Shown here piece after piece: positions 32 to 8,781 of a stretch of 27,718 nucleotides of DNA. The stretch covers positions 1 through 27,718 of IMG/VR virus record IMGVR_UViG_3300030095_004319. One strand, 5' to 3'. The notes under the pieces were generated by a model. That model was not told the DNA's origin. It worked only from the letters and a program-made list of their open reading frames with translations, and searched no databases. Numbering within the stretch: the stretch's first letter is position 1; each line of letters starts with the position of its first letter. Position numbers and translations under genes: made by a program. Origin of the DNA: a virus (lineage: Duplodnaviria; Caudoviricetes).

Positions 32-580
32 TCATTCTTTTATTTTAATTGTTATGTCGTGTGGCGCATATTCATTACCACCAAAATACGGGTATAAATA
101 ATACCTACGTACTAAACCCCAATTACCTTCAGGTCTTCTACGAACAAGTGTAGTATCATTATCTATTACTATTACATAATAAAATGTTTTTATATCAATA
201 GTAGCGTTATAAATTACATCTGTGTCTATAGTTCTTATTGTTGCAGCGCTATGCCTACCTTCTTCATGCCTCAACCAACAAAGCTCTAACTCGTTGTTTA
301 AATATCTCCAACCAAGACGTATAGAGTATTTTTGATGCCTAACGCCAAAATCACTCATACCATATATTTTGTTTACATCATGTTGGTTTTCTGCTATTTC
401 AGTTTCATATATAGCAGATTCATCTAGCATAAACTTAAATTCTATCTTTGAATTATCTGGGTGGTTTATAAAACTACCTGAGCTATGCTCGCCAGCTGGT
501 ATTGTGTAAACTCTAAAGCCAAGATCATCAACTTCTTTTGCGCATGAAACTAATAAAAGAAGTATCAAAAGTTTTTTCAT
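32..580 (-). CDS. Phage-encoded lipoprotein (182 aa), beta-rich, possibly concanavalin A/polysaccharide-lyase-like fold
   Basis: N-terminus MKKLLILLLLVS-C is a classic signal peptidase II lipobox, followed by AKEVDD. The start overlaps the upstream gene's stop (TAATG at 580). The fold assignment is inferred from the beta-strand pattern and the C-terminal YPYFGG motif. Confidence 0.8.
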   Translation of the reverse strand: MKKLLILLLLVSCAKEVDDLGFRVYTIPAGEHSSGSFINHPDNSKIEFKFMLDESAIYETEIAENQHDVNKIYGMSDFGVRHQKYSIRLGWRYLNNELELCWLRHEEGRHSAATIRTIDTDVIYNATIDIKTFYYVIVIDNDTTLVRRRPEGNWGLVRRYYLYPYFGGNEYAPHDITIKIKE

Positions 581-3500
581 TAAAACTTTTTCTTTTTAAA
601 AGTTTGTTTTTTAAATGGTTTTCTTAATGATTTTCTTGATTTAACAGCGTTTCTATATTCTTCTATTGCTTCATTTTGTATGCCTAAGTTATACTGACTC
701 CAACCTAAAAACATTAACGATCTTTGCCAAGCTTCGTTTTGGCTATTTAATGCTTGACCCAAATTCTTAGTTTTGTTATACAATCTATTAGCTGGTACAT
801 TAGTTAAAGCTTCAATATAATTAGTTACGGCTGACCATTGAGGATTATCGCTATCAAGCAGTTCCATTTCACCTATTATATTTTCATTATAATTTAATGT
901 TTTCTCTGCGTTAACTATTTTTCTTAACTTAATACCAAGTGGTGGTGAGAAATTTGCTAGTTCCATTATTACAGAGCTTTCATCAAAATTATAGTCTTTG
1001 TCTCTTTCTCTTGAAAATTTAATAGCCATGTTTTTTAAAGTTGCTACAGCAGCACCTAAAACACCAGATCCTCGCAATACAGAATCAATACTACCGCTAA
1101 GCATACGCTCTTGTTTACTTAATAATTTTTCATCTTCTGGATCATCATCAAACATCATAAAGAACAACGCTGATTGTAAGCCGTAGAATATCAAGTTTTG
1201 CACCGCAAAATAATATAATATTCTTGAAGAGTTAGATATATCACTTTGTAATAACGTTTTGTTAGGCGGTGTTATTCTTCTATTATACATGTCTAAAAAC
1301 GCTTTTTTACCTAACCTATTAAACTGAGATGTTACATTTTGAAAAGCTAATATCCATTTACCAGCGTCAGATGCTTGTTGTTGTGAAACCATATCAGGTC
1401 TTGCTGACTGTTGTGTTGCTTCTGATATTTCTTGAAAATCAGCAAATGCTCTTCTTTCAGCTTCAGCTTGACCTAAACCTTGTTTTTTATAAGTGTTTAC
1501 TCTATTTCTATAAAACAAAGCACCACCTGTTGCTATCGCAATGTTATCACCAATTTGTGTAGGCTTAAAACCTAGTTGTAATAATTTTCTTATTAAACTT
1601 CTTATAGGATATTCAGATTCGCTAATTTCAGAAGCAAGCTCAGCACCGTTAACATCTGTTCTAATACCACCACGTCTTTGCTTCATAAAGTCAGAGTTAA
1701 ATAACATAGACCAATCATTCCAGTATTGTTTTTGATTTGCAAAAACTTTAGCCGCTTGAAATATATTGTTATCAGCGTAGTTTATAAAATTAACTATAGA
1801 CATTTGCTGTAAAACTAATGATCTTATATTAAAGAACATGACAGTACCTACAGCAGCATTTACAAAATTAGTTAATGCGTTTACTATTGCATTTTGCCCT
1901 TTAGGTCTATTTTTACCTAATTTTATTCTATAAAGCATGTCTTCAAGAGCGTTTCTAACACCTTTACCGTAAGCAGCCTCTATTTTGTTTAAATTTTCTT
2001 GTGAAAATATTATGTCAGCGTTTTGTTGAAACTCTGCAAAAAACTCTGCTCTACCAACTCTATCAGTAGCATCTATCAAATCCATTTTTATATTAAATGC
2101 TTCCCAACCAACTGCTGGCGCAACATAATCAGATCGTTTAGATATTACGTTTAAAGCCTCGGCGTAGCTTAACAACCTAGCGTCGTTTTTAACTATGTTA
2201 GCTAAATTAGCTTGGTCTGTTTCACTTATACCAGGTATAGCGTGACCATGTTTGTCCCAAAGGTATACTCTTATAGCATCTTGATATGTAAAATCACCAT
2301 CAGGCGTTTTCTTTGTAAACATATCTTTAACGTCTTTGTATTGTTTGTTTAAAGATTTGTAATCACTAGCTATTGACTGTCTAGCAGTGTCATATTCTCT
2401 AAACGCTCTGTTAAGAGGTTTTATTAAAGCTTTTTCAAAAAAGTCTCTATGTGCATCACCTTTTTTTCCTTTGCCTATAAAGTTATACAACAACCCTACA
2501 AGATCTTCATGTGATGGCGGTATAAAGTATCTAAACTTACCTTTACTAGAACCACGCTTTCTAGCTTTAATTTCACTAAATCTTTTTCTTGATTCTATAC
2601 TAGTAACATCTTCTATTATATCATTAAACCGATCACTCATACCTTCACTAAAACTAACTTTAGCTTGTTGTATTTTTGATTTAACATCAAATTGATCTAG
2701 CATGTTTTTAACAGCTTGTACATTTTGTAACGCATCATCTGCAAAATAAAAGTCGTTGTAACCTTGAGCTGCTTTATCTGCTACCCACAATGCTTTTGCT
2801 TCTGCTGTAGAGTTACCTAGACCAGTTATATTTTCTATAGGTATATTTAAACCATTAGCTTTTAAAAAGTCAAATATAGCTTGTGCTGATACAGCTGGCC
2901 TAGCAGTTAGTACAAACATATTTTGTGGGCCAAACTTACCTTGCAGCTTTAGTGCTTTTTTAAATAAAGGCGCAACTTTACCTTTAACAACTTTGTTAAA
3001 CTCTGAAAAATCAAACACATAACCTTGGTCTTGCAAGTCTTGATATGTACTAGCGTACTGCTCAGCGTTTAACGTGCCTGTGTCTCCTTGTGGTGTTGTG
3101 TATTTAACTAGAGACTCACTTGTCGCTAGTGTATCATCAAAGTCTAATATAGTTATTCCTTTTGAAAAATTTGATGTTCTAGAGTTTATAGCAGCTTTAC
3201 TCATAGAAACATTTTTCTTTGCTAAAATAGAGTTATTTACAGCTTTTTTAAACTTCTGCATGTCTTTGTCACCTCTTATAACAAACCCAGATGTTTTAGC
3301 TATTTTTTTAGTATTAAGCTGAGCTTCTACGTTGATTCTAAATTTGTAACCTCTAAATACTTTGTTTTTATCACCGTCTTTGCCATTTTTATAAATACTA
3401 CCATTTGGCGTAAGACCAGCTTTAACGTCGGCTTCTGTAGCATTAGTTTTTGAACTTCCAACTAAAAAATTAGCTTTAACGCTATGCTCACCCTTAATAG

Positions 3501-6500
3501 AAGTAACACCTAAACTTTGCTCTGTTTGCAAAATATCTTTTCCCAAATAGTAAACGCCAGCGCCTTGACCTTCACGTATTGATGTTAGATAATAATTACC
3601 TTTTTTATTATATAAATATATAGATACAGAACCATTATCTTCTATATCAACATTAGAATCTGCTTTTATAGCGGCAAGAGTCATACCATCAACAGTTGAA
3701 TCTTCGTTGTTGTTCCATAAATTTCTTTTTCTACCATGAAATTTTGTATAAAAACGAAAACCATTATAAGGAGATACTTCTGGCAAAACAACATTGTCTA
3801 ATTTAGTTCCTTTAGGATAACCACCTATTTCTACAAGATACCTTTCAAGTCTTTTAACTGTTTTTGTTAGTACAGGCTTAATAAGTTTAGCTACTTTGTC
3901 TTGAATATTTTTTTCTATATTAGTATCACTAAATTCAAAATTACCTTTGCTATCGTAAGATTTTATGCTTATTTTACCAGCATTAACAGTGCCATCTACA
4001 GCAAACTTAACTTCCATAGAAATTTGTTGGCCATTTTTTAATTCAAACACTATGTCTGAGTTTTGAAAAACACCCCCTTTAAATATACCAGGTATTGGCT
4101 TTATATAAACATCAAACTCACCAATTTTGTGTCCAGGCGCTAACATACCAGCATTTACAAATAAATCTTTTACAGCTCTTTCGCCTACGTCGCCAAGAGT
4201 ACTTTCGCCTTTTATTTTAGGAATTAAGCCAAATACATTTTTTAAAGCCTTGTTTATCTGCGCTTCAGTACCAAAACCACCTTTTCTTCCCAATTCGTAA
4301 ATAGGATCTATTATAGCCTCTAAATAAGGTTTACCTTTGTATTTTAGCGTATATCTTTTTTTAGCAAAGTTTTCAAAGTTTTTTTGAGCCATAAGGAATA
4401 GTTCACTAAACTGATTTACAACATCTCCAGCTTCAATTCCTAAACTCATTGATATACTAGGATTAACATCAAGAATATCAGCTATTACTTGAACGTCGTT
4501 CTCTATTTGTTCTACATTTGTTATATCCTGAACATCCCTCATTCGCTCAACAATATCTAACTCTGCATTTAATATATTAATTGTAGCATCAAAACCAACT
4601 TTTTCAACTACAGCTTCTGCTAAAGCATCTTTTCTAGGGCCAAACGCAGATTCTTTAATAGTATAACCTAACACTTCCTGCATGTTTGTACCTCTAAAAA
4701 ACGCCATTATTTGCTCGTTGCTAGGTGTTTTTAGCTTAGTATTTAAGTTTGGTCCACTAGCAGGTTTAACATCTTTTCTTATTAAACCTTGCTCTTGTAA
4801 TTTTCTAACTTCTTTTACAGATGTTATCCTTTTAGAATCTACAAATATTTTTTTACCTTTTGGCACTCTTCTTTCTATTTGCACCCATCTATCAGCGCTT
4901 AATGTTATATGTAAAGAAGGTATATATTTTCTTAAAAACTTATTGTAATCTTGCTCTCTACCAAATACATCTTGTATTTCTTTTTTAAGCTCAACAATAA
5001 GAGCATCTTTTAATTGTGTTCTATATTTTTTTGATCTTATATCTGGAAGTTTTGTACCATATGTTTTTCTAACAGCTTGTTTTACTTTTTCAATTACTTC
5101 ACCAGTCAAATTAAGATCTTTTTTAATTTGAGACTCTAACTGCTCTGGAGTAAGCTCTTGCTCTTGTTCTTGAACATCATCAGCAATATCAAAACTTCTT
5201 CTACCAGTCTCTGATGGTTGATCTATTGTAGTTGTCTTTGGCTTAATAGCTAGTTCTTTTGCAGCTTCCATTTTACCAAATCTAATATCAGAAAATATTC
5301 TTTCAGCAAAGGTTATCGGTGCATCGCTTTTCTTTTTTCTTTTAGCTCCTGGGTCGTAATTTATAATCCTGTCATTAATTTCATCTAAAACTTTTGACCT
5401 AGCGTCAGGCAATGCTTTTTGCATTACTTGGTTGTATATAAGACCACCTGGCGCTAAGGCTTTACCTATTTCTTTGTTAAGTCTTGGGTCAGATAAAAAA
5501 GCTAAATAATCTTCTTTTGTTTTAACATTTTCAGGTATAAGATCGTTTATTTGATCTACAACACCTTTTGAAAAACTAGTGCTAGAAACTTTAACATCTT
5601 CTTCTGGCGGCCTTTGCATTACAACTTTTTGAGCCTCTATTTTTCTTTGAAAACTATCAACATAAGCTAAAACATCTGCAGCTGTTTTTAATTGAATATA
5701 CTCTGTATTTTTACCAAAAGGTGATAGTTGTTTTATCTTGTTAAATAAATCTCTAAAATAAAACAATATATTAGTATCACTCTCTTTTAAAAGCCCAGCG
5801 TTTTTCATTTCACCAATTATTTCTTTTAATTCATTTAAATCAAATTTACCGTCTTTTGTGTACTGAGTAATTCTTTTTTTGGCAAACTTATAAGCTTCAG
5901 AATCTTGATCTAAATCTTCAAGAAACTTAACTGTTTCTTCTACAGCTTTTTTATGTTTTTCTTGAACTTCACCGTCTTTTGAAACACCTACATCATTATC
6001 GTACATGTGACCAGCTTCGTGTATAGGTGAGTATGCCATAGCGCTTTTACCAACTCTTGATTTTGAGTTTGCTATGTTGTTATAAGCATTTTCATCTATT
6101 AATATTACTTCATTGTTTTCACGAATAAAAGTTCCGTTAGCACCAATAGTAGTGTTACCATTATCATCTTTTTTTGTTTCAAGACCTGCTACTAAATTAT
6201 CATATTTTTCAACAGTTATAGTGCCATTGTTTACAAGCTCGTTTAATCTAACTAAAGCATCGTCAAAAGTTAAGTATTCACCAGATTTAATTCCAGCCCC
6301 AACTATTGTGTTTTTAAACCTATGGTATTGATTTACAAAAAAAGCGTTTTGCGTGTCATTTTCTGCTTTTCCAACTATTTTATTATAATTTTTCTGTCTT
6401 TCTTCTAAAGGTTTATTTCTAAGCTCTTCGTTTCTAGACATTAAATTAGTATTTTCGTCTATTATTTCTTTAAGCTCTTCTTGCACAGCAGGGTCTTGAA

Positions 6501-8781
6501 ATTGATTTATACCTGTTCTAGCTCCTAACCTTCCTGCTTTTTCGTTATTTTTTCTTACTATTCTGCTGTTTTCAAAAACTTCATCTATGTCTTCTCTAGT
6601 CATGTCAGCAAAATCTAAAAAAGAATTAGCTTCTAGTATTTGCGCTTGCTCTAAAAGATCTTGTAATTGGTTTTCAAGAATTAACCTAGATTGATAATTT
6701 TCTGCCTTTTTAATTCTTTCATTAAGAGCAATTACTTTTTGTTTAATCTTTTCATGCTCGTTTATTTCATTTCTAGTTTTAAATTCATTACCTATAGCTC
6801 CATAAACATTACGACTCATTGAAGGTCCTTGTATTGCTAAAGTTGAAAACAACACGTTCATATTGAAATCAGCATCTATGCCTTTGATATAACTTATGTC
6901 AGTGTCTTTTAATACAACGTGGTCCATTATATTATGACCTATTTCAGTTATGGCTTCTTCTAAATATTCTATACCAACATTTTTGCCATACATAGCAAAA
7001 CCACGCATAGAGCTTTTAAAAGTTAATTCTGGAAAACCTGAAAATTGACCTAGTCTTTTCATTATACTTAAAGTACCTGCTTTTTCAGCTACAGCAGCAA
7101 TACTACCGTACATAACAGGGTTAAACGATTTTTGAAAACTGTTTAAATTTAAATGTCTACTAAGCCTGTCTCTCATTTGATATAAGTCTAAAAGCCTATT
7201 TTTGTCTTTAGTGTTGCTAATTTCTACTTCTATTTTAGGCAGCTGAATTTTAGCTCGTCTTTCCATTAACTCTAAACTACTAAGCTGACTACCTGTTTCA
7301 GTTCCAAAAAACAAAGTTGCAACGCCGTTACCAACTGTTTTAGCTGCTTTTTGACTTAAAGGTGTAACAGTTATTCCTCTCATTAATTGAACACCACTAG
7401 CTAGTCTATAAGCACCAGCCGCGGTCAAAGCAGTAAATATACTAAAAGCATTTTCCGCAAACAATTGCGTTGCAAACTCACCAACATTACTATCTTTACC
7501 AAAAAATTTTAAGTCTCTAAACTTTGGAGATATTGGATATACAGATTCTTTATGGTTTTTTAAACTTTCACCAACATTTATTATATCATTAAAAAGTTTG
7601 TCAGCTGGTTTAAAACCAAGTTCAGAAGCCAAACCAGGTATTACACTAGCTAAGTCGTTTATAGCAATATCTACAGCGTTTAAACGTACATTTTCAACAA
7701 AACCATACTCCGTAGCTAGTGCTGCTGCTTGTATTCTATAATCATTAACTAAATCAACTTTTTTGTTTAATTTTTTAGACCTAGACACCACGTCTTTATT
7801 AGCTGCATCTATAGCTTCAACATCATGTTTACTATAAAAACTTGAAATTAAATCAACTCTTTGTTCAAATAAGTTTGATATTTTTTTTAATTCTTTTTCG
7901 TCTTGAGTGTACGGTACTACGCCTCCTTCATAAACAAAAGCTAATTCTTCTATTTCATCCATTAACTTATCTAGCTTCGGTAGTAAAACTTTTCTATCTT
8001 TTTCGTAAGCAGAGTTTAAAGAGTTATAACTTTCAATATCTTTACCAAGCTTATCAGAGGCTTGCTTAACATAGCTGTTAATAACCTTTGAAGTTTGCGT
8101 AAGTCCTTCTTGTTTTAATTCGTTAGAAAGTTGCTCTTTTTGAAAACCTTTTCTAGAAAAATATGTTTGAAAAAAATTTTGATCAAAATCTTCTGCTAGT
8201 GTTCTAGTGGCTTTATCTTCTTTTATTGCTTTTTTAAATAAATTAATATATTTTTGATCACCATCAAATATTTCAAAAGCTCCAGTTTGAACATCTTCAA
8301 GAGCGCTTTGTTGTTCTTCGTCTGATAAATCTAAACCCCTAATGTATAATTCAGCTGCTCTTCTTTTTTCTAAATTTATAACACCTTCGCCTTTTGTTGG
8401 AAACAAACTTTTATCTTGTAAAAGATCCATGTTGAAGTCTTTGTTTTCAGAAAAACTAACATAATTGTCATACCTACCTTTACCTTGACTATCAAAATAA
8501 GCTTTTAAATCATCTTGCTCCGTAGCAGAATAACTTTTAACATCGTCTGTATAGTCGTCAAAAAACAAATTTTCAGGCCTATCTCTAAATTGTTTAAAAT
8601 TATTGTAAGTTGAACCACCAATCTCAACTCTTCGGTCTAAACTAAACGCAACATCGCCTAAAGATCCTATAACTTTAGGATCTTTAAAGTTAACGTTGTC
8701 TAGCAAGCTTGTTAACTCAGTTTTAAAATCTAAAATTTTAGTTTCTGAGTTATCAGCAAAATTAAATTGAGAGTCTGGCAT
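580..8781 (-). CDS. Giant putative virion ejection/cargo polyvalent protein (2733 aa) with zincin metallopeptidase, sigma-like, PD-(D/E)xK nuclease and HAD phosphatase modules
   Basis: Uninterrupted 8.2-kb ORF at the distal end of the tail genes, where podoviruses encode internal/ejection proteins. Motifs seen: HEAGH (aa 921-925), E..SD..EVK (aa 1534/1576/1590-1592), DFDDT..TAR..K..DD (aa 1880-2016), plus hydrophobic helices near both ends. Confidence 0.8.
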   Translation of the reverse strand: MPDSQFNFADNSETKILDFKTELTSLLDNVNFKDPKVIGSLGDVAFSLDRRVEIGGSTYNNFKQFRDRPENLFFDDYTDDVKSYSATEQDDLKAYFDSQGKGRYDNYVSFSENKDFNMDLLQDKSLFPTKGEGVINLEKRRAAELYIRGLDLSDEEQQSALEDVQTGAFEIFDGDQKYINLFKKAIKEDKATRTLAEDFDQNFFQTYFSRKGFQKEQLSNELKQEGLTQTSKVINSYVKQASDKLGKDIESYNSLNSAYEKDRKVLLPKLDKLMDEIEELAFVYEGGVVPYTQDEKELKKISNLFEQRVDLISSFYSKHDVEAIDAANKDVVSRSKKLNKKVDLVNDYRIQAAALATEYGFVENVRLNAVDIAINDLASVIPGLASELGFKPADKLFNDIINVGESLKNHKESVYPISPKFRDLKFFGKDSNVGEFATQLFAENAFSIFTALTAAGAYRLASGVQLMRGITVTPLSQKAAKTVGNGVATLFFGTETGSQLSSLELMERRAKIQLPKIEVEISNTKDKNRLLDLYQMRDRLSRHLNLNSFQKSFNPVMYGSIAAVAEKAGTLSIMKRLGQFSGFPELTFKSSMRGFAMYGKNVGIEYLEEAITEIGHNIMDHVVLKDTDISYIKGIDADFNMNVLFSTLAIQGPSMSRNVYGAIGNEFKTRNEINEHEKIKQKVIALNERIKKAENYQSRLILENQLQDLLEQAQILEANSFLDFADMTREDIDEVFENSRIVRKNNEKAGRLGARTGINQFQDPAVQEELKEIIDENTNLMSRNEELRNKPLEERQKNYNKIVGKAENDTQNAFFVNQYHRFKNTIVGAGIKSGEYLTFDDALVRLNELVNNGTITVEKYDNLVAGLETKKDDNGNTTIGANGTFIRENNEVILIDENAYNNIANSKSRVGKSAMAYSPIHEAGHMYDNDVGVSKDGEVQEKHKKAVEETVKFLEDLDQDSEAYKFAKKRITQYTKDGKFDLNELKEIIGEMKNAGLLKESDTNILFYFRDLFNKIKQLSPFGKNTEYIQLKTAADVLAYVDSFQRKIEAQKVVMQRPPEEDVKVSSTSFSKGVVDQINDLIPENVKTKEDYLAFLSDPRLNKEIGKALAPGGLIYNQVMQKALPDARSKVLDEINDRIINYDPGAKRKKKSDAPITFAERIFSDIRFGKMEAAKELAIKPKTTTIDQPSETGRRSFDIADDVQEQEQELTPEQLESQIKKDLNLTGEVIEKVKQAVRKTYGTKLPDIRSKKYRTQLKDALIVELKKEIQDVFGREQDYNKFLRKYIPSLHITLSADRWVQIERRVPKGKKIFVDSKRITSVKEVRKLQEQGLIRKDVKPASGPNLNTKLKTPSNEQIMAFFRGTNMQEVLGYTIKESAFGPRKDALAEAVVEKVGFDATINILNAELDIVERMRDVQDITNVEQIENDVQVIADILDVNPSISMSLGIEAGDVVNQFSELFLMAQKNFENFAKKRYTLKYKGKPYLEAIIDPIYELGRKGGFGTEAQINKALKNVFGLIPKIKGESTLGDVGERAVKDLFVNAGMLAPGHKIGEFDVYIKPIPGIFKGGVFQNSDIVFELKNGQQISMEVKFAVDGTVNAGKISIKSYDSKGNFEFSDTNIEKNIQDKVAKLIKPVLTKTVKRLERYLVEIGGYPKGTKLDNVVLPEVSPYNGFRFYTKFHGRKRNLWNNNEDSTVDGMTLAAIKADSNVDIEDNGSVSIYLYNKKGNYYLTSIREGQGAGVYYLGKDILQTEQSLGVTSIKGEHSVKANFLVGSSKTNATEADVKAGLTPNGSIYKNGKDGDKNKVFRGYKFRINVEAQLNTKKIAKTSGFVIRGDKDMQKFKKAVNNSILAKKNVSMSKAAINSRTSNFSKGITILDFDDTLATSESLVKYTTPQGDTGTLNAEQYASTYQDLQDQGYVFDFSEFNKVVKGKVAPLFKKALKLQGKFGPQNMFVLTARPAVSAQAIFDFLKANGLNIPIENITGLGNSTAEAKALWVADKAAQGYNDFYFADDALQNVQAVKNMLDQFDVKSKIQQAKVSFSEGMSDRFNDIIEDVTSIESRKRFSEIKARKRGSSKGKFRYFIPPSHEDLVGLLYNFIGKGKKGDAHRDFFEKALIKPLNRAFREYDTARQSIASDYKSLNKQYKDVKDMFTKKTPDGDFTYQDAIRVYLWDKHGHAIPGISETDQANLANIVKNDARLLSYAEALNVISKRSDYVAPAVGWEAFNIKMDLIDATDRVGRAEFFAEFQQNADIIFSQENLNKIEAAYGKGVRNALEDMLYRIKLGKNRPKGQNAIVNALTNFVNAAVGTVMFFNIRSLVLQQMSIVNFINYADNNIFQAAKVFANQKQYWNDWSMLFNSDFMKQRRGGIRTDVNGAELASEISESEYPIRSLIRKLLQLGFKPTQIGDNIAIATGGALFYRNRVNTYKKQGLGQAEAERRAFADFQEISEATQQSARPDMVSQQQASDAGKWILAFQNVTSQFNRLGKKAFLDMYNRRITPPNKTLLQSDISNSSRILYYFAVQNLIFYGLQSALFFMMFDDDPEDEKLLSKQERMLSGSIDSVLRGSGVLGAAVATLKNMAIKFSRERDKDYNFDESSVIMELANFSPPLGIKLRKIVNAEKTLNYNENIIGEMELLDSDNPQWSAVTNYIEALTNVPANRLYNKTKNLGQALNSQNEAWQRSLMFLGWSQYNLGIQNEAIEEYRNAVKSRKSLRKPFKKQTFKKKKF
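2690..3160 (-). other. HAD-superfamily phosphatase domain within the giant protein
   Basis: All four HAD motifs occur in order: ILDFDDTL (DxDxT, 3130-3144), VLTAR (T at 2905-2907), EAKALWV (K) and YFADDALQN (DD at 2734-2739). Confidence 0.85.
3220..4230 (-). other. PD-(D/E)xK restriction-endonuclease-like domain within the giant protein
   Basis: Helix GDVGERAVKDLF (E at 4180-4182), strand SDIVF (D at 4054-4056) and ISMEVK (E-x-K at 4006-4014) match the canonical motif order. Domain limits are approximate. Confidence 0.6.
5170..5560 (-). other. Possible sigma-70 region 2/3-like segment within the giant protein
   Basis: NYDP...ITFAERIFSDIRFG resembles sigma region 2.3-2.4 (FDP...FxTYAxxWIR). 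TTIDQP...SFDIADD resembles the region 3.2 pattern SLDxP...DxIxD. Divergent, by-eye match only. Confidence 0.35.
5780..6150 (-). other. Zincin-like metallopeptidase (MPTase-type) domain within the giant protein
   Basis: Strand pair ANGTF...VILID, then HEAGH (HExxH, 6007-6021), then a downstream helix NELKEIIGE that could supply the third Zn ligand. Confidence 0.7.

What the first reader, a model, noticed from the sequence alone, without database searches (positions are those of the whole stretch)
2641..5580. Recurring (S/N)-(F/M)-S-x-(G/A) linker marks the domain boundaries: candidate self-processing sites
Seen: TSFSKG (5563-5580, after the peptidase), ISMSLG (4438-4455, before the nuclease), VSMSKA (3193-3210, after the nuclease), SNFSKG (3157-3174, before HAD) and VSFSEG (2641-2658, after HAD). 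All five fall at inferred module junctions. Inference: they are cleavage sites for the protein's own metallopeptidase, releasing separate effectors after injection or during maturation, or they are junction signatures of module swapping.
Basis: partly seen in the sequence, partly recalled or inferred. Interest (0 to 1): 0.8.

Follow-up and report, generated by a model that had tools for sequence, protein, structure and literature searches.

The report
Self-cutting code in giant phage protein
A giant protein of an uncultured phage carries a short Phe/Met-Ser tag at the joints between its modules, and across 230 relatives the tag's variable letters follow the protein's own predicted zinc-protease domain more than the neighbouring sequence, so the tags are likely the long-predicted sites where such proteins cut themselves into separate enzymes, though no cutting has been shown.

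Summary
All five hexamers are real, in frame, in a 2,733-aa protein ending the virion gene block of a Flavobacteriia-type podovirus. In this window alone the pattern is post hoc; homologues make the case. The family form is [VIL]-[KQNS]-F-S-[KRENQ]-[SDGT]. It sits at module joints (63/66, 201/251, 239/251), brackets modules inserted between domains but not inserts inside the HAD fold, and is kept at protein level only (codon sharing 289/570, expected 291). Key result: peptidase and C-terminal halves are shuffled (rho about 0), yet of 229 variable columns around the last site, the four that best fit the peptidase tree over the C-terminal tree are the motif's own variable positions. Best reading (0.68): sites for the embedded HExxH-E metallopeptidase, as predicted without sites by Iyer et al. 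2017. Against: no cleavage data, no peptidase-free homologue as control, site 2 follows its flanks, N4 vRNAP stays whole; site 4 is lineage-specific. This scan noted similar linker motifs before on two other genomes; the tree test is new here.

The parts
580..8781 (-). Giant 2,733-aa multidomain protein, likely virion-packaged and ejected (polyvalent-type)
   Evidence: ORF; last large gene of a block with portal, terminase, capsid and muzzle homologues; the giant gene at the matching position in Cellulophaga phi18:3 is annotated structural by MS/MS
6205..8781 (-). N-terminal region aa 1-859, no family match; no motif enrichment in homologues
   Evidence: 1 of 133 breakpoints; 63 hits vs 80 shuffled
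5608..6204 (-). Predicted zincin-like metallopeptidase, aa ~860-1058; HEAGH at 6007-6021 (aa 921-925), likely third zinc ligand E984 at 5830-5832
   Evidence: Pfam Zn_peptidase E 1.7e-4, below cut-off; H, E/D, H in 230/230 and E in 229/230; strands before the HExxH helix and a later Glu helix in the model
5563..5580 (-). Site 1, TSFSKG (Ser1071), after the peptidase; the most degenerate site in the family
   Evidence: Ser invariant in 26-sequence alignment A2; [FYML]S 80/130 vs 0.41 random, S[KR][SATG] 79/130 vs 0.09
4474..5559 (-). Module 2, aa ~1075-1436; N-terminal part weakly resembles sigma-70 region 2 (lead only)
   Evidence: VIA Z 4.3 to sigma28, 65 aligned, rank 41; Atlas hit 0.91, Sigma70_r2 on 15% of members, recognition below threshold
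4438..4455 (-). Site 2, ISMSLG (Ser1446), after module 2
   Evidence: [FYML]S in 63/66 homologues with this landmark vs 0.26 random
3232..4434 (-). Module 3, aa ~1450-1850, predicted PD-(D/E)xK nuclease (SDIVFE...MEVK); a variable slot in homologues
   Evidence: best Foldseek hit HhaI endonuclease E 6e-3, prob 0.94; VIA Z 6.7, rmsd 5.6, 215 aligned; 7 similarity groups in this slot among 251 proteins
3193..3210 (-). Site 3, VSMSKA (Ser1861), between nuclease and HAD
   Evidence: [FYML]S within 45 aa before HAD in 201/251 vs 0.45 random; [FYM]S[KREQN] 161/251 vs 0.14
3157..3174 (-). Site 4, SNFSKG (Ser1873), abutting HAD strand 1; lineage-specific, weakest site
   Evidence: same position in 3 of 253; HAD fold aligns from about aa 1871
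2692..3162 (-). HAD-superfamily phosphatase domain, aa ~1874-2030 (DFDDT ... FADD)
   Evidence: VIA Z 8.4, rmsd 2.8, 106 aligned to Nir2 C-terminal HAD-like domain, many HAD hits below
2641..2658 (-). Site 5, VSFSEG (Ser2045), between HAD and C-terminal domain; the site whose letters track the peptidase
   Evidence: Ser in 179/181, Phe before it in 171/179
583..2628 (-). Conserved C-terminal domain, aa ~2052-2733, no family match; motif under-represented
   Evidence: 2,983 homologues among 8,000 candidates scored; 37 matrix hits vs 95 shuffled

Best explanation
The Phe/Met-Ser tags at the module joints are likely recognition and cleavage sites for the protein's own predicted zinc metallopeptidase, which would cut the likely capsid-packaged polyprotein into a sigma-like piece (~375 aa), a predicted nuclease (~415 aa), a predicted HAD phosphatase (~170-185 aa) and the C-terminal domain (~690 aa). 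Shown: the tags, their positions at joints, their protein-level conservation, and their co-variation with each other and with the peptidase region. Inferred: catalysis, that the peptidase reads roughly positions -3 to +2 around the serine, and that incoming modules adapt their linkers to the resident peptidase. Timing is not determined; I lean 60:40 to cutting after ejection into the host rather than inside the maturing head.
For: (1) Joints: [FYML]S in 63/66, 201/251 and 239/251 landmark windows vs 0.26, 0.45, 0.25 random. A matrix trained on site 5 alone finds 434 upstream site clusters vs 83 hits in shuffles in 250 proteins, more in longer proteins (3.3 vs 1.6), spaced mostly 150-250 or 350-450 aa. 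(2) Ten proteins with a module inserted between domains show the motif at or within about 45 aa of both ends; 14 inserts inside the HAD cap show none in the printed flanks. (3) No DNA repeat: 289/570 shared codons vs 290.6 expected; Ser as TCN in one site and AGY in the other in 121/206 site pairs. (4) Sites agree within a protein: site 2 vs 5 at -2, +1, +2 match 45, 35, 30 vs 30.5, 27.8, 16.4 permuted, control +4 5 vs 4.2 (n 57). (5) Peptidase identity is uncorrelated with HAD/C-terminal identity (rho -0.03 to 0.03, n 230), yet the four best of 229 variable columns for peptidase-tree over C-terminal-tree fit are offsets -2, +2, +1, -3. In 100 subsamples -2, +1, +2 are in the top five 100, 86, 97 times. 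The best-predicting 80-aa window is the one on HExxH (557/920; random 350; windows near or beyond the site 442-471). (6) H, E/D, H and a third Glu are kept in 229-230 of 230. (7) Matches the prediction of Iyer et al. 2017.
Against: No cleavage data exist, and no cultured phage matched the HAD/C-terminal part or the peptidase by tblastn. No full-length homologue lacking H[ED]xxH was found, so 'lose the peptidase, lose the motif' is untested; the four HDxxH proteins among 181, which may be weakened or dead enzymes, keep a motif (FSE or ESK). Windows just N-terminal of the peptidase predict site 5 nearly as well (513-532 vs 557). Site-2 letters are predicted better by their own flanks (74, 79) than by the peptidase (65; random 55; n 57). 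Offset -3 is unstable (top five in 26 of 100), and in the 88 locus-derived proteins alone ranks are 1, 9, 25, 14 of 217. The insertions are a handful of events, not 24. The peptidase fold was not confirmed by structure search. Recombinant N4 vRNAP, which carries an HExxH domain, showed no degradation (PMC13434306). The cultured elemoA gp89 has a homologous peptidase but no excess of this motif (4 vs 4.4).
Confidence: 0.68

Rival explanations
1. The tags are docking signals bound, but not cut, by the peptidase-like domain or the linked N-terminal region, for example to order modules during packaging or threading through the tail; the peptidase would act on host or cell-wall targets instead.
For: Explains co-variation equally well; pre-peptidase windows predict site 5 almost as well; HDxxH proteins keep motifs; N4 vRNAP stays whole; a peptidoglycan role is proposed for such domains in phi24B gp47 and phi14:2 gp65.
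Against: The signal peaks on the HExxH core and is stronger there at -2 and -3 than in the region before it (0.30, 0.20 vs 0.16, 0.11); absence from inserts inside HAD and depletion in the C-terminal domain fit avoidance of cutting.
Confidence: 0.15
2. The tags are cut by a separate protease (phage head-maturation or host protease), as with P1 Pro or T4 gp21.
For: Head proteases process capsid and internal proteins (PMC9024508); the contig is only 27.7 kb, so a protease gene elsewhere is possible.
Against: No motif excess in the other virion proteins (0 strict in 6,406 aa; 23 vs 17 and 23 vs 20 in homologous loci); the upstream gene predicts site 5 worse than the peptidase (156-158 vs 183 of 316, n 79); no protease family hit among the other 13 ORFs.
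Confidence: 0.08
3. The tags are scars or micro-homologies of DNA recombination that swaps modules.
For: Some insertion breakpoints fall inside or next to the motif.
Against: No excess codon identity between sites of one gene and mixed TCN/AGY serines; cannot explain tracking of a peptidase 1,100 aa away across shuffled halves. Micro-homology may still help swaps as a by-product.
Confidence: 0.04
4. The tags are ordinary structural caps of neighbouring domains or chance matches.
For: Post hoc in the single window; site 4 overlaps the HAD start; the Phe after HAD survives without the Ser in insertion-type proteins.
Against: The same tag precedes and follows unrelated modules and its letters follow the peptidase, not the adjacent domains.
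Confidence: 0.05

Closest known systems
Phage polyvalent proteins with zincin-like MPTase (Iyer et al. 2017, PMC5512222)
   Same: Large virion-locus multidomain protein, disparate enzymes, embedded HExxH-E peptidase, mosaic architecture; autoproteolytic release of units was predicted there.
   Different: The main text names no recognition motif ('linker' 0, 'interdomain' 0, 'cleavage site' only in a reference). No Pfam LPD domain scores here; sigma-like, HhaI-like and HAD cargo. Its FTP supplementary alignments were not seen.
Phage N4 virion RNA polymerase gp50 (PMC13434306)
   Same: Giant ejected protein with an HExxH zincin-like domain and beads-on-a-string layout.
   Different: Reported without degradation when recombinant; no polymerase here; no junction motif reported in the passages read.
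crAss-like virion RNAP block, phi14:2 gp65-gp67 (10.1101/2020.03.07.982082)
   Same: Related capsid/muzzle type; zincin domain proposed to cleave fused polyproteins.
   Different: Cleavage there also unproven; the DFDDT here belongs to a HAD fold, not the RNAP DFDxD site.
Head-maturation protease processing (P1 Pro, T4 gp21)
   Same: Short degenerate motif read by a phage protease (for P1; T4/phiKZ specificity recalled).
   Different: There the protease is separate and cuts several head proteins; here the motif is confined to one protein, downstream of its own peptidase.
RNA-virus polyproteins with embedded proteases
   Same: Works like: one chain, repeated degenerate sites at joints, embedded protease (analogy drawn in PMC5512222 section 34).
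   Different: Unrelated enzyme class, dsDNA phage, cleavage not shown.

Membership tests
Phage polyvalent proteins (Iyer 2017) | Large chain joining several biochemically disparate domains | tested here: met
   peptidase motif, nuclease-like and HAD folds in 2,733 aa
Phage polyvalent proteins (Iyer 2017) | Encoded with virion genes of a terminase-portal phage | tested here: met
   portal phrog_6547, terminase phrog_6681, structural PHROGs
Phage polyvalent proteins (Iyer 2017) | Domain mosaicism among homologues | tested here: met
Phage polyvalent proteins (Iyer 2017) | Named LPD or other listed hallmark domains | tested here: inconclusive
   no Pfam LPD hit; Atlas look-alike cluster with LPD23 on 18% of members
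Phage polyvalent proteins (Iyer 2017) | Packaged in the virion and delivered with the DNA | not testable with these tools
   only synteny with MS-annotated phi18:3 gp123
Zincin-like MPTase | HExxH helix plus downstream Glu helix | tested here: met
Zincin-like MPTase | Zincin fold by structure comparison | tested here: inconclusive
   no zincin among listed hits of a two-domain model; sub-threshold HMM hits
Self-processing polyprotein | Recurrent motif at module joints, absent inside folds | tested here: met
Self-processing polyprotein | Motif depends on the embedded protease (lost when it is lost) | tested here: inconclusive
   no peptidase-free full-length homologue found; co-variation supports dependence
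Self-processing polyprotein | Demonstrated cleavage at the motif | not testable with these tools
   needs biochemistry or N-terminomics
Head-maturation protease substrate | Same motif in other head proteins | tested here: not met
Recombination cassette junction | DNA-level similarity between junctions | tested here: not met

The most novel reading that the evidence does not exclude
These phages run a lineage-specific polyprotein code: each giant ejected protein carries its own protease with its own preferred site (FSK, FSE, FSQ, FSL, ESK), freely swapped effector modules rewrite their linker letters to fit the resident protease, and the chain is cut into separate anti-host enzymes after injection. 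That would be an RNA-virus-style processing scheme in dsDNA phages and a natural library of hundreds of matched protease-site pairs.
Probability: 0.5. Interest if true: 0.82.

Novelty: new variant of a known kind. Interest (0 to 1): 0.66.

Why it matters
Autoprocessing of phage polyvalent proteins by their metallopeptidase was predicted in 2017, but I found no sites or direct test in the nine literature searches run. This gives exact candidate sites, a specificity window (about -3 to +2 around the serine) and a swap experiment with a predicted result, so the question becomes directly testable with one expressed fragment. It also offers a way to cut unannotated giant phage proteins into their working modules, and bears on how very large proteins are delivered through a phage tail and then act at different targets.

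Tried and rejected
Single-protein locus search with the peptidase found nothing. No cultured phage matched the HAD/C-terminal part or the peptidase by tblastn. Giants at the matching position in Panino, phi38:1 and phi18:3 lack H[ED]xxH and show no motif excess (2 vs 1.9, 2 vs 1.7, 2 vs 2.0), but they are too distant to serve as a loss control. elemoA gp89 (homologous peptidase, E 7e-9) has no FS excess; an R-[FMQ]-Q triplet at three apparent joints is post hoc and not significant (3 vs 0.87, P 0.058). Exact-word motif discovery was blind even to the window's own motif. Blast-end breakpoints gave only a 3-fold enrichment (172/1,123 vs 5%) because ends are noisy; landmarks were used instead. 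Residue-level mutual information pointed to positions just before HExxH but is confounded by kinship and not claimed. Foldseek, VIA and PDB sequence search did not return a zincin for the peptidase; the domain was not folded alone. Pfam and NCBIfam named almost none of the swapped modules. DFDDT as an RNA-polymerase site was rejected on fold. No look-alike notes by place.
Full report
Context. The window is a whole 27.7-kb contig holding one strand of virion genes: terminase, portal, capsid-like, muzzle-like and other structural proteins. The capsid's closest cultured matches are phages of Maribacter, Flavobacterium and Cellulophaga at about 25-43% identity. The finding lies in the last large gene, 580-8781 (minus), 2,733 aa, with a single HExxH at aa 921. 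The gene at the matching position in phi18:3 is annotated structural from MS/MS, so virion packaging is inferred, not shown.

Observation. The strict pattern occurs 5 times against 0.24 in shuffles and never in 13 other ORFs, but it was fitted to the data; looser forms are only marginal, and an exact-word search with shuffled controls does not recover it. The single window therefore does not establish it.

Anatomy. N-terminal region (1-859); predicted zincin-like peptidase (HEAGH, E984; Pfam and NCBIfam hits below cut-off; strands then two helices in the model; fold search inconclusive); site 1; a module weakly like sigma-70 region 2 (lead only); site 2; a predicted PD-(D/E)xK nuclease nearest HhaI; sites 3 and 4; a HAD phosphatase fold; site 5; a conserved unnamed C-terminal domain. 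Sites 3 and 4 lie in an internal low-confidence linker and site 1 at the end of one; sites 2 and 5 are low-confidence too but near model ends.

Homologue set. The C-terminal domain found 2,983 proteins among 8,000 candidates scored, of which 120 were returned, plus 150 listed representatives of 2,436, 144 of them new, and loci from three scans. After removing near-duplicates 181 full-length proteins were used first, then 265 (new rows had to be at least 2,100 aa, start with Met and carry H[ED]xxH; none of that length lacked it; four shorter ones of 1,816-1,970 aa without it were left out unexamined). Tree tests used the 230 with HAD directly before site 5. Of the 181, 177 have HExxH and 4 HDxxH.

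Junction enrichment. At site 5 the Ser is kept in 179/181 and Phe precedes it in 171/179. With landmarks defined by profiles that exclude the motif, [FYML]S lies in 63/66 windows after module 2, 201/251 before HAD, 239/251 before the C-terminal domain and 80/130 after the peptidase, against 0.26, 0.45, 0.25 and 0.41 at random; module-2 landmarks were found in only 66 and 130 of 251 proteins. A matrix trained on site 5 alone finds 434 clusters upstream against 83 shuffled hits, rising with length and spaced at module size. Ten proteins with extra modules between domains show the motif at or near both ends, while ten 199-aa P-loop kinase inserts and four ~130-aa inserts inside the HAD cap show none; three further rows are ambiguous (read by eye; these are a few events, not independent ones). 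Site 4 is lineage-specific (3/253) and touches HAD strand 1.

Protein, not DNA. In 100 coding sequences, identical residues at two sites of one gene share a codon 289 times of 570 (expected 290.6), and the Ser switches between TCN and AGY in 121 of 206 site pairs; the window's five are TCA, AGT, AGT, TCA, AGT.

Co-variation. Within a protein the letters at different sites agree beyond permutation, e.g. HEGGH peptidases mostly with FSQ, HDxxH with FSE or ESK; permutation does not correct for kinship. The sharper test uses shuffling: peptidase identity is unrelated to HAD or C-terminal identity. Among 229 variable columns in the 340 aa around site 5, only 7 fit the peptidase tree better than the distal C-terminal tree, and the top four are offsets -2, +2, +1, -3 from the Ser. 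A nearest-neighbour version gives ranks 1, 2, 3, 6 of 217 and holds in subsamples except for -3, with weaker ranks in single-source subsets. Disjoint pairs with similar peptidase but dissimilar flanks (37) share motif letters at 0.61 and control columns at 0.39; pairs with similar flanks but unlike peptidase (71) give 0.50 and 0.61. Sliding 80-aa windows peak on HExxH (557/920) with the region before it close behind (513-532); the upstream gene does worse. Against: at site 2 local flanks predict better than the peptidase.

Mechanism. Shown: tags at joints, selected as peptide, tied to the peptidase region across recombined halves. Inferred: the peptidase binds about six residues around F-S and cuts, freeing sigma-like, nuclease and phosphatase units; new modules need and acquire matching tags; inserts inside a fold must not be cut. 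The bond cut and the timing are unknown. A non-cutting docking role remains the main rival; a separate protease and DNA scars fit poorly.

Literature. PMC5512222 (passages; sections 33 and 34 in full) predicts this processing but names no site; its FTP supplements were not seen and might show linkers. PMC13434306 (passages): recombinant N4 vRNAP with HExxH showed no degradation. 10.1101/2020.03.07.982082 (passages) and 10.64898/2026.04.10.717836 (passages) propose cleavage or peptidoglycan roles for such domains, untested; their supplements were not read. PMC9024508 (passages) for P1 head processing; PMC9503650 (passages), no linker. Nine searches listed no paper whose title or abstract start reports such sites; subscription journals are largely missing from that library. 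T4/phiKZ protease specificity and zincin pocket geometry are recalled, not from calls. Two earlier notes of this scan describe similar serine-centred linkers in other giant phage proteins; they are leads, not support.

Verdict. Real feature; likely self-processing sites of a polyvalent-type protein; a known predicted kind with a new, testable code. Interest 0.66.

Noticed in passing
window 4474-5559 (aa 1075-1436) and homologues: A module resembling sigma-70 region 2 follows the peptidase in at least 130 of 251 homologues; an injected sigma-like factor could redirect host RNA polymerase. Weak evidence only.
   Followed up: partly
P0033, P0066, P0072, L054, L078, L151 and others, inside the HAD domain: A 199-aa Zeta_toxin/AAA_33-like P-loop kinase is inserted in the HAD cap, giving a kinase-phosphatase pair reminiscent of polynucleotide kinase/phosphatase (recalled).
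   Followed up: partly
P0106, P0038, L032, L075, P0145, P0152: Peptidases with HDxxH in place of HExxH keep junction motifs of a shifted type (FSE, or ESK in L075/P0152); either active with changed specificity or recently dead.
   Followed up: partly
giant protein family, peptidase half vs HAD/C-terminal half: The two halves are essentially unlinked across 230 proteins (rho about 0), implying very frequent recombination within one gene.
   Followed up: partly
L169:3946-15030 (Flavobacterium phage elemoA gp89): Cultured phage with a homologous peptidase and R-[FMQ]-Q at aa 1683, 2079 and 2302, apparently at joints; post hoc, P 0.058.
   Followed up: partly
homologues, 50 aa before HAD: Two or more [FYML]S motifs occur in 99 of 253 proteins in this linker, often 12-16 aa apart, as in the window's sites 3 and 4.
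   Followed up: no
P0020 aa 21-149: One homologue has a phage lysozyme domain at its N-terminus, consistent with the N-terminal part acting at the cell envelope.
   Followed up: no
window 32-580: 182-aa ORF just downstream of the giant gene begins with a lipoprotein-like signal (MKKLLILLLLVSC), no family match.
   Followed up: no
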